Shown here: in pieces, positions 53,249-53,785 of the stretch
Layout: the number at the start of each line of letters is the position of its first letter
Position numbering within the stretch: the first letter of the stretch is position 1
Assembly (NCBI RefSeq): GCF_003334765.1
Contig: NZ_QOWT01000007.1
Strand: one strand, 5' to 3'
From: Escherichia coli
GTDB taxonomy: Bacteria; Pseudomonadota; Gammaproteobacteria; Enterobacterales; Enterobacteriaceae
DNA length: 64,000 nt
Notes under the pieces: generated by a model
Database searches by the model: none
What the model was told of the DNA's origin: nothing
The model's input: only the letters and a program-made list of their open reading frames with translations
Translations under genes and position numbers: made by a program

Positions 53249-53468
53249 TACATAATCCTTCATTTATTTTAATTACAGTGATCCCTGTGAATATTACATC
53301 TGCTATACCGATTAATTCGCCAGATATATATGCAAGCACCATCATTTACTAAAACAAGTAAATAAACGAGAGATGACCTTTGCAAAAGGCAAAATTAAGA
53401 TATAGCAAACAAATAGATCACATTGAATCTAATCGGTTTGGCTCTGGTGATGGCTACAGAAGGGCAAA

Positions 53469-53543
53469 TCAAGGGCGGTGATCGACAATTTTGTTGTCAA
53501 TATTGAACCATTTTGAGGTCACACATATATGTAAGATATTCAT
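53469..53543 (-). CDS. tnaC: Tryptophanase operon leader peptide (24 aa)
   Basis: Hand translation of the minus strand: ATG AAT ATC TTA CAT ATA TGT GTG ACC TCA AAA TGG TTC AAT ATT GAC AAC AAA ATT GTC GAT CAC CGC CCT TGA = MNILHICVTSKWFNIDNKIVDHRP; too short for the ORF track. Confidence 0.93.
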   Translation of the reverse strand: MNILHICVTSKWFNIDNKIVDHRP

Positions 53544-53785
53544 AATGCACTTATCCTCGCAAGACACGAGGCTACATTATTACACTCAGAGTTTTTGTCT
53601 ATTCTGAAATTGTTTAAATGTGAATCGAATCACAATCGTTCGGGGAGCAATATTAAATGCTTTTTTTAAAGATTATAAATTACGTAAGAATTTTAATGTT
53701 TAAAAAAAGGGTTGAGGAATAACAGGAGTGGTAACAATGAAGCGAAGCCGCATCTGACAGTCAGAATGCGGCTTCGTAAGCGCGG

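What the first reader, a model, noticed from the sequence alone, without database searches (positions are those of the whole stretch)
53264..53700. tnaC leader peptide and long untranslated spacer before tnaA (Rho-dependent attenuation architecture)
The 24-codon leader MNILHICVTSKWFNIDNKIVDHRP is present exactly, with the single Trp at codon 12 and Pro24 before the stop. It is followed by about 220 nt of C-rich, G-poor spacer before tnaA, the classic arrangement for tryptophan-induced ribosome stalling that blocks Rho loading. It is easily missed because it falls below the ORF-track length threshold.
Basis: partly seen in the sequence, partly recalled or inferred. Interest (0 to 1): 0.4.

Follow-up and report, generated by a model that had tools for sequence, protein, structure and literature searches.

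The report
Textbook tnaC tryptophanase leader, E. coli K-12
This is the well-known E. coli tnaC leader peptide and its 220-base spacer in front of the tryptophanase gene, base-for-base the same as in strain K-12, so it is real and correctly read but ordinary.

Summary
The minus strand 53543-53469 encodes exactly MNILHICVTSKWFNIDNKIVDHRP, followed by TGA. Trp12, Asp16, Ile19 and Pro24 are all in place. Exactly 220 nt separate the stop codon from the annotated tnaA ATG at 53248. tnaB follows tnaA.

The 601 bases around the leader are identical to E. coli K-12 MG1655, where RefSeq annotates tnaC (b3707), tnaA and tnaB. The peptide passes the curated NCBIfam tnaC_leader model and equals the chain in two solved stalled-ribosome structures. 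tnaC is present in 5391 of 5426 complete E. coli genomes. In five sampled divergent strains the peptide is unchanged, and all six variable coding sites are synonymous.

One detail of the finding is wrong. The spacer as a whole is not C-rich and G-poor (C 15.9%, G 17.7%, A+T 66%). A C>G, rut-like zone exists only from the 3' half of tnaC to about 50 nt past the stop. The distal 120 nt are C-poor.

The spacer has no intrinsic terminator and no excess RNA structure, which fits Rho-dependent rather than hairpin attenuation.

The parts
53619..53634 (-). CRP (CAP) binding-site consensus TGTGA-N6-TCACA upstream of the tna promoter
   Evidence: The sequence reads TGTGATTCGATTCACA. It is invariant in all 7 E. 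coli sequences aligned. It is retained in strain L004, where everything upstream of it is replaced. Catabolite repression and CRP activation of tna are stated in the papers. Binding was not tested here.
53576..53582 (-). -10-like element TAATAAT of the tna promoter. The transcript start, placed from memory at about 53567, gives a 319-nt leader with the tnaC ATG at +25.
   Evidence: Read directly. The consensus scan found no sigma-70 site on this strand at 9 of 12 matches or better, as expected for an activator-dependent promoter with a poor -35. The start-site position rests on my recollection of Deeley and Yanofsky 1982 and was not verified here.
53554..53558 (-). Shine-Dalgarno GAGGA for tnaC, 10 nt before the ATG
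   Evidence: Read directly from the sequence.
53469..53543 (-). tnaC coding sequence: 24 codons plus TGA. W12 is at 53510-53508, D16 at 53498-53496, I19 at 53489-53487, P24 at 53474-53472 and the stop at 53471-53469.
   Evidence: Translation; codon positions; RefSeq annotation of the identical K-12 sequence; NCBIfam TIGR02616 at 44.3 bits against a cut-off of 23.55; PDB chains 6i0y_7 and 4uy8_7.
53469..53477 (-). boxA-like sequence CGCCCTTGA overlapping the last tnaC codons and the stop
   Evidence: The sequence is read directly. The assignment as boxA rests on my recollection of Konan and Yanofsky 2000, whose title is cited but whose text is not held. It was not tested here.
53417..53522 (-). 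C>G, YC-rich zone spanning the 3' half of tnaC and the first ~50 nt of the spacer. This is the rut-like region next to the stop codon.
   Evidence: Sliding 78-nt windows give C 0.28-0.29, G 0.15-0.17 and 14 YC dinucleotides. Positions 53468-53418 vary at one position (53465) among 7 E. coli sequences, and 53417 also varies. [quoted passage not shown]
53429..53444 (-). Published Spot 42 sRNA pairing site, GAGCCAAACCGATTAG, starting 25 nt after the stop codon
   Evidence: The paper reports a 15-nt Spot 42 tract pairing with the tnaC-tnaA intergenic region. Duplex prediction with Spot 42 nt 47-66 gives -19.4 kcal/mol at this site. Only 7 of 1000 shuffled leaders did as well (spf sequence).
53249..53468 (-). 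tnaC-tnaA transcribed spacer, 220 nt: site of Rho-dependent termination at pause sites, and also of L4 binding
   Evidence: Length. No terminator-like hairpin plus T-run was found in it. The leader fold has z = -0.21. Pause sites and L4 binding are described in the paper.
51833..53248 (-). tnaA (tryptophanase, 471 aa), with SD AAGGA at 53260-53256
   Evidence: TIGR02617 at 1010 bits against a cut-off of 825.8; K-12 annotation.
50495..51742 (-). tnaB (low-affinity tryptophan permease, 415 aa)
   Evidence: NF007235 at 925 bits against a cut-off of 497; K-12 annotation.

Best explanation
This is the regulatory leader of the E. coli tnaCAB (tryptophanase) operon.

Transcription starts at a CRP-dependent promoter. 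A ribosome then translates the 24-codon tnaC.

When free tryptophan is low, RF2 releases the peptide at UGA and the ribosome leaves. The C>G rut region that abuts the stop codon is exposed, and Rho loads. Rho terminates RNA polymerase paused in the 220-nt spacer, so tnaA and tnaB are not transcribed.

When tryptophan is high, one L-Trp molecule binds in the exit tunnel next to TnaC W12 and D16. Hydrolysis of TnaC-tRNAPro (P24 in the P site) is inhibited. The stalled ribosome physically covers the rut site, and transcription reads through into tnaA and tnaB.

Shown here: sequence identity, anatomy, composition, absence of a hairpin terminator, and purifying selection on the peptide.

Taken from published work on this same sequence: stalling, RF2 inhibition, and Rho dependence.
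For: - Exact peptide and codon positions.
- 601/601 bases identical to MG1655, and 6000/6001 across mnmE-tnaC-tnaA-tnaB. RefSeq annotates tnaC, tnaA and tnaB there.
- NCBIfam tnaC_leader, tnaA and tnaB models all score above their curated cut-offs.
- The peptide equals the nascent chain in PDB 6i0y and 4uy8.
- The C>G zone is confined to the stop-codon neighbourhood.
- No intrinsic terminator lies in the spacer, and the leader has no excess structure (z = -0.21).
- tnaC is present at >=80% coverage in 5391 of 5426 complete E. coli genomes.
- In five sampled strains whose 601-nt region is 3-5% divergent, the peptide is unchanged (same WP_001364348.1). All 6 variable coding sites are synonymous third positions.
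- Leaders with the W-[FY]-[NT]-x-D core precede tnaA on Salmonella IncFIB plasmids and in Photobacterium and Vibrio replicons.
- The mechanism is described.
Against: Nothing substantive. No experiment was done on this window. The distal 120 nt of the spacer are not rut-like (C 10%, G 20%), so the composition argument applies only to the stop-proximal part. The simple promoter scan does not find the tna promoter, which is expected for a CRP-dependent promoter but gives no positive support. The transcript start and boxA assignments rest on memory.
Confidence: 0.97

Rival explanations
1. A trp-operon-style attenuator. Ribosome position on Trp codons would choose between alternative RNA hairpins, one of them an intrinsic terminator.
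For: There is a short leader ORF with a Trp codon upstream of a tryptophan-related operon.
Against: There is only one Trp codon, not a tandem run. No stem plus T-run terminator lies anywhere between tnaC and tnaA. The 319-nt leader folds no better than shuffles (z = -0.21; 39 of 100 shuffles fold as well). The literature assigns termination to Rho.
Confidence: 0.01
2. The spacer acts chiefly as a post-transcriptional control region, through Spot 42 pairing and ribosomal protein L4 binding. On this view tnaC and Rho are secondary.
For: A Spot 42-complementary site lies at 53444-53429 (-19.4 kcal/mol; 7 of 1000 shuffles as good). Published reporter evidence supports Spot 42 action. L4 binds the 220-nt spacer and lowers TnaA translation. 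The last 48 nt of the spacer are invariant in 7 E. coli sequences.
Against: These are reported as additional layers on top of attenuation, not replacements for it. In published reporters, Trp induction of about 38-fold is lost when tnaC is mutated: the induction ratio is 1.8 with D16E and 1.0 with the start codon removed.
Confidence: 0.02
3. A chance short ORF with no coding function.
For: None beyond its small size.
Against: The peptide is 24/24 identical to TnaC and scores above the curated family cut-off. It has been solved on the ribosome. Variation across E. coli is synonymous only. A conserved core appears in other genera.
Confidence: 0

Closest known systems
E. coli K-12 tnaCAB leader (tnaC, b3707)
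   Same: It is identical over the 601 bases that include the promoter region, tnaC, the spacer and the tnaA start. The gene order mnmE-tnaC-tnaA-tnaB-mdtL is the same.
   Different: Nothing differs in the leader. Across 6001 bases there is one synonymous difference from the MG1655 reference: tnaA codon 46 is GTG in the window and GTT in MG1655, at window 53111.
Plasmid-borne tnaCAB of Salmonella enterica (IncFIB plasmids NZ_CP022118.1 and NZ_CP092862.1)
   Same: A leader ORF ends ...TSKWFNID..IV.HRP-stop. The W-to-P spacing is the same. A spacer of 222 or 266 nt precedes tnaA-tnaB. Both peptides pass TIGR02616, at 39.0 and 25.1 bits.
   Different: The N-terminal residues differ (MNILHRCMTSK..., MINLFNSYLTSK...). 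The stop codon is TAA. The spacer sequence is diverged. The operon is on a conjugative plasmid rather than the chromosome.
Vibrionaceae tnaA leaders (Photobacterium sp. DA100, Vibrio sp. THAF190c, V. campbellii) and, from the literature, Proteus vulgaris tnaC
   Same: A short ORF upstream of tnaA carries the W-[FY]-[NT]-x-D core. The Photobacterium ORF keeps Pro at W+12.
   Different: All three score below the TIGR02616 cut-off, at 22.9, 20.3 and 15.6 bits. In Photobacterium the Pro is followed by Val before the stop. The two Vibrio ORFs have no Pro at W+12. Spacers are about 85 to 333 nt. Their function is untested. Proteus is known to me only from memory and from reference 9 listed.
speFL / ornithine-sensing leader of speF
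   Same: A small-molecule-dependent ribosome arrest on a leader ORF masks a rut site and prevents Rho termination.
   Different: The peptide, the ligand (ornithine) and the operon all differ. The peptides show no sequence relationship.
trpL attenuator of the trp operon
   Same: A leader peptide with Trp codons controls premature termination.
   Different: trpL senses charged tRNA-Trp through tandem Trp codons and uses alternative hairpins with an intrinsic terminator. Here there is one Trp codon, no terminator hairpin, free Trp as the ligand, and Rho as the terminator.

Membership tests
TnaC tryptophanase leader peptide (NCBIfam TIGR02616) | Scores above the curated cut-off of the family model | tested here: met
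   44.3 bits against a cut-off of 23.55, E = 1.1e-11, covering profile positions 1-22 of 22.
TnaC tryptophanase leader peptide (NCBIfam TIGR02616) | Conserved functional residues W12, D16, I19 and P24 with native spacing | tested here: met
   All four residues are present at those positions. Their requirement is stated.
TnaC tryptophanase leader peptide (NCBIfam TIGR02616) | Pro24 codon immediately followed by a stop codon read by RF2 (UGA) | tested here: met
   CCT-TGA at 53474-53469. RF2 inhibition is described.
TnaC tryptophanase leader peptide (NCBIfam TIGR02616) | Located upstream of, and on the same strand as, tnaA and tnaB | tested here: met
   tnaA lies 220 nt downstream and tnaB follows it. 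Both pass their equivalog models.
Rho-dependent, uORF-controlled attenuator (tna type) | C>G, unstructured (rut-like) RNA directly next to the leader stop codon | tested here: met
   C 0.28-0.29 against G 0.15-0.17 in 78-nt windows around the stop. There is no excess folding. This tests composition only; Rho binding was not tested.
Rho-dependent, uORF-controlled attenuator (tna type) | No intrinsic terminator between the leader ORF and the structural gene | tested here: met
   The only terminator-like sites in 53100-53900 lie at 53838-53804, inside mnmE. None lies in 53468-53249.
Rho-dependent, uORF-controlled attenuator (tna type) | Termination in the spacer depends on Rho (bicyclomycin or rho-mutant sensitive) | not testable with these tools
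   Established experimentally for the identical K-12 sequence.
Rho-dependent, uORF-controlled attenuator (tna type) | Tryptophan-dependent ribosome arrest at the leader stop codon | not testable with these tools
   Shown by toeprinting and cryo-EM for this peptide. Solved structures hold the same chain.

The most novel reading that the evidence does not exclude
The promoter-distal part of the spacer is not rut-like (C 10%, G 20%). Its last 48 nt, together with the first 13 nt of tnaA (53296-53236), are invariant in 7 E. coli sequences that differ at tnaC synonymous sites and in the -10 region. This stretch could hold a conserved RNA element that sets tnaA translation or stability independently of TnaC and Rho. 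Such an element would go beyond the Shine-Dalgarno sequence and beyond the partly described L4 and Spot 42 effects.
Probability: 0.2. Interest if true: 0.2.

Novelty: already known. Interest (0 to 1): 0.04.

Why it matters
The tna leader is a reference example of a nascent peptide that turns the ribosome into a small-molecule sensor, and of uORF-controlled Rho termination. It is also used as a tryptophan biosensor.

Finding it in a K-12-identical window adds nothing new. The value of this check is to confirm the call and to correct two details. First, the rut-like composition is local, not spread over the whole spacer. Second, the real tnaA start is 53248, not 53263. The check also shows that a short functional ORF below ORF-track thresholds was correctly recognised.

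Tried and rejected
- Rfam scan of 51000-56000 at E <= 1 found only two chance-level hits, both at the yidC/mnmE terminator and none in the leader. No Rfam match reached the threshold there.
- The sigma-70 consensus scan did not find the tna promoter. Its one hit is on the opposite strand, inside tnaC, and below the number expected by chance.
- Whole-length Spot 42/leader duplex folding was uninformative: 58 of 300 shuffles did as well. I replaced it with the 20-nt Spot 42 segment.
- Konan and Yanofsky 2000 (PMC94583), needed for exact boxA and rut coordinates, is not held.
- The eLife 3'-end mapping paper only lists tnaC among leader peptides and gives no tna-specific data in its main text.
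- A 5' hairpin, CCTCG-N7-CGAGG at 53571-53555, overlaps the tnaC Shine-Dalgarno sequence. I considered it and set it aside, because its 5' arm lies at or upstream of the presumed transcript start.
- The verdict did not depend on them, and the plasmid collection already gave relatives.

Full report
**Observation.** On the minus strand, 53543-53469 translates to MNILHICVTSKWFNIDNKIVDHRP followed by a stop.
- The single Trp is codon 12 (TGG 53510-53508).
- Asp16, Ile19 and Pro24 are at 53498-53496, 53489-53487 and 53474-53472. The stop is TGA at 53471-53469.
- A GAGGA Shine-Dalgarno sequence lies 10 nt before the ATG.
- A mechanical ORF list shows the leader only as a 32-aa ORF started at an upstream GTG (53567..53469).

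**Downstream genes and spacer.**
- The next ORF is listed from an ATG at 53263 (MKDYVMENF...).
- The annotated tnaA start is the second ATG, at 53248. It is preceded by AAGGA at 53260-53256.
- From the tnaC stop to that ATG is 53468..53249, exactly 220 nt. This equals the MG1655 distance (tnaC ends at 3888509, tnaA starts at 3888730) and the 220 nt given in the literature.
- tnaB follows at 51742-50495.
- TnaC, TnaA and TnaB all exceed the curated NCBIfam cut-offs: TIGR02616 at 44.3 vs 23.55 bits, TIGR02617 at 1010 vs 825.8, and NF007235 at 925 vs 497.

**Identity of the window.**
- The 601 bases 53800-53200 are identical to E. coli K-12 MG1655.
- Over 6001 bases (yidC end, mnmE, tnaC, tnaA, tnaB, mdtL start) there is one difference. 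tnaA codon 46 is GTG at window 53111 and GTT in MG1655. The change is synonymous, and every other E. coli sequence sampled has GTG.
- The window corresponds to the reverse complement of MG1655 3877978-3941977.

**What is wrong in the observation.**
- The spacer as a whole is not C-rich and G-poor. It is 15.9% C, 17.7% G and 66% A+T.
- C exceeds G only in a zone running from the 3' half of tnaC to about 50 nt past the stop. There, 78-nt windows starting 53522-53496 have C 28-29%, G 15-17% and 14 YC dinucleotides.
- The last 120 nt of the spacer have C 10% and G 20%.
- It is also the best-conserved part of the proximal spacer. Positions 53468-53418 vary at one position (53465) among 7 E. coli sequences.

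**Tests of the architecture.**
- The spacer holds no terminator-like hairpin plus T-run. The only such sites in 53100-53900 lie inside mnmE.
- The presumed 319-nt leader folds no better than dinucleotide shuffles: -67.8 kcal/mol, z = -0.21.
- Both results fit factor-dependent termination and argue against a trpL-type hairpin attenuator.
- Rfam has no match in the leader.
- Upstream, a near-consensus CRP site (TGTGATTCGATTCACA, 53634-53619) and a -10-like TAATAAT (53582-53576) are present. This agrees with the catabolite repression described for tna.
- The simple sigma-70 scan finds nothing on this strand, as expected for an activator-dependent promoter.
- The transcript start (about 53567) and the boxA-like CGCCCTTGA (53477-53469) are placed from memory. 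The primary paper is not held.

**Mechanism, taken from the literature on this same sequence.**
- At low tryptophan, ribosomes terminate at the tnaC UGA and leave. Rho loads on the exposed rut site and terminates RNA polymerase paused in the spacer.
- At high tryptophan, L-Trp binds in the exit tunnel next to W12 and D16, and RF2-mediated hydrolysis of TnaC-tRNAPro is blocked. The arrested ribosome masks the rut site, and tnaA and tnaB are transcribed.
- W12, D16, I19 and P24 are the required residues.
- The same peptide is the nascent chain in the solved ribosome complexes 6i0y and 4uy8.
- None of these functional steps can be tested with the tools here. They are inferred for this window from sequence identity.

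**Other known layers inside the finding's coordinates.**
- The published Spot 42 pairing tract maps to GAGCCAAACCGATTAG at 53444-53429. The predicted duplex is -19.4 kcal/mol, and 7 of 1000 shuffled leaders do as well.
- Ribosomal protein L4 is reported to bind the 220-nt spacer and reduce TnaA translation.

**Related sequences within E. coli.**
- The 601-nt region matches 5420 of 5426 complete E. coli genomes, always on the chromosome.
- tnaC itself is present at >=80% coverage in 5391 genomes. The exact K-12 allele occurs in 1384.
- In five strains whose 601-nt region is 3-5% divergent, the annotated TnaC protein is the same accession.
- The six variable coding sites are all synonymous third positions, in codons 13, 15, 17, 18, 20 and 22. 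Two strains have TAA instead of TGA. This is the pattern of a translated, constrained peptide.

**Related sequences outside E. coli.**
- A tblastn search with TnaA against plasmid records found tnaCAB on Salmonella IncFIB plasmids. Their leaders are MNILHRCMTSKWFNIDNKIVDHRP and MINLFNSYLTSKWFNIDTMIVNHRP. Both score above the TIGR02616 cut-off, and the spacers are 222 and 266 nt.
- The same search found short ORFs with a W-[FY]-[NT]-x-D core upstream of tnaA in Photobacterium and two Vibrio replicons. These score just below the cut-off.

**Comparison and verdict.** The feature is the E. coli K-12 tna leader itself. Every sequence-level defining feature of the TnaC family and of the tna-type Rho attenuator was tested and met. 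The two functional features, Trp-dependent arrest and Rho dependence, are established experimentally for the identical sequence but are not testable here. The feature is already known, and interest is low.

Noticed in passing
window 53111 (tnaA codon 46, minus strand): This is the only difference from the MG1655 reference in 6001 bases. The window has GTG and MG1655 has GTT, a synonymous change. All seven other E. coli sequences checked have GTG, so the MG1655 reference carries the unusual base and the window is a K-12-like genome but not that exact record.
   Followed up: partly
window 53263 vs 53248: The mechanical tnaA ORF starts at an in-frame ATG five codons upstream (MKDYV-MENF...) of the annotated start. 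The AAGGA Shine-Dalgarno sequence sits between the two ATGs and serves the second one.
   Followed up: yes
L003 and L006 (E. coli strains 361 and 400660), aligned to window 53470 and 53465: The tnaC stop codon is TAA instead of TGA in these lineages, with a second G-to-A change 3 nt after the stop. UAA is read by RF1 as well as RF2, which might alter basal or induced levels.
   Followed up: no
window 53593-53577, aligned strains L002, L003, L004, L006: There are two haplotypes of the promoter -10 region. K-12 and L005 have GAGTGTAATAATGT; the others have GAGTATTATACTGT, with further changes just upstream. The CRP site is invariant.
   Followed up: no
L008 (strain E70) 1016-1713; L007 (strain AH62) 1575-2272: IS1 disrupts the leader in some genomes. 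In E70 it is inserted within the tnaC-tnaA spacer. In AH62 it replaces tnaC and the spacer, and tnaA is annotated as a shorter gene (1380 nt). These are candidate indole-regulation or indole-negative variants.
   Followed up: partly
L004 (strain PRO_A-1505-6W-A_ESBL) 1-1500: mnmE is not upstream of tnaC in this strain. Homology to the window begins at the CRP site (about window 53636), and a ShET2/EspL2-family type III effector gene lies upstream. About 790 genomes cover less than 80% of the 601-nt query and may share this arrangement.
   Followed up: partly
E. coli genome search summaries: At least one genome holds 7 separate matches to the tnaC region, against a median of 1. This suggests an amplification or an engineered strain.
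   Followed up: no
L012 775-867 (Vibrio sp. THAF190c); L014 about 1008-1106 (V. campbellii): The leader-like ORFs upstream of tnaA keep W-x3-D-x2-[IL] (AWYTLDHQI, FWYNLDYCL) but have no Pro at W+12. They score below the TnaC model cut-off, at 20.3 and 15.6 bits. They may be a different stalling module, or not functional.
   Followed up: partly
L011 (Salmonella enterica plasmid NZ_CP092862.1) about 860-934: A 25-codon tnaC (MINLFNSYLTSKWFNIDTMIVNHRP) precedes tnaA but is not in the plasmid's gene table. It passes TIGR02616 at 25.1 bits.
   Followed up: yes
window 53775-53744 (minus strand): A long inverted repeat, GAAGCCGCAT...ATGCGGCTTC, lies just after the mnmE stop and is probably the mnmE terminator. 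The scan did not report it because no T-run follows.
   Followed up: no
window 53296-53236: The last 48 nt of the spacer and the first 13 nt of tnaA are invariant in 7 E. coli sequences. The preceding 60 nt vary at 12 positions.
   Followed up: no
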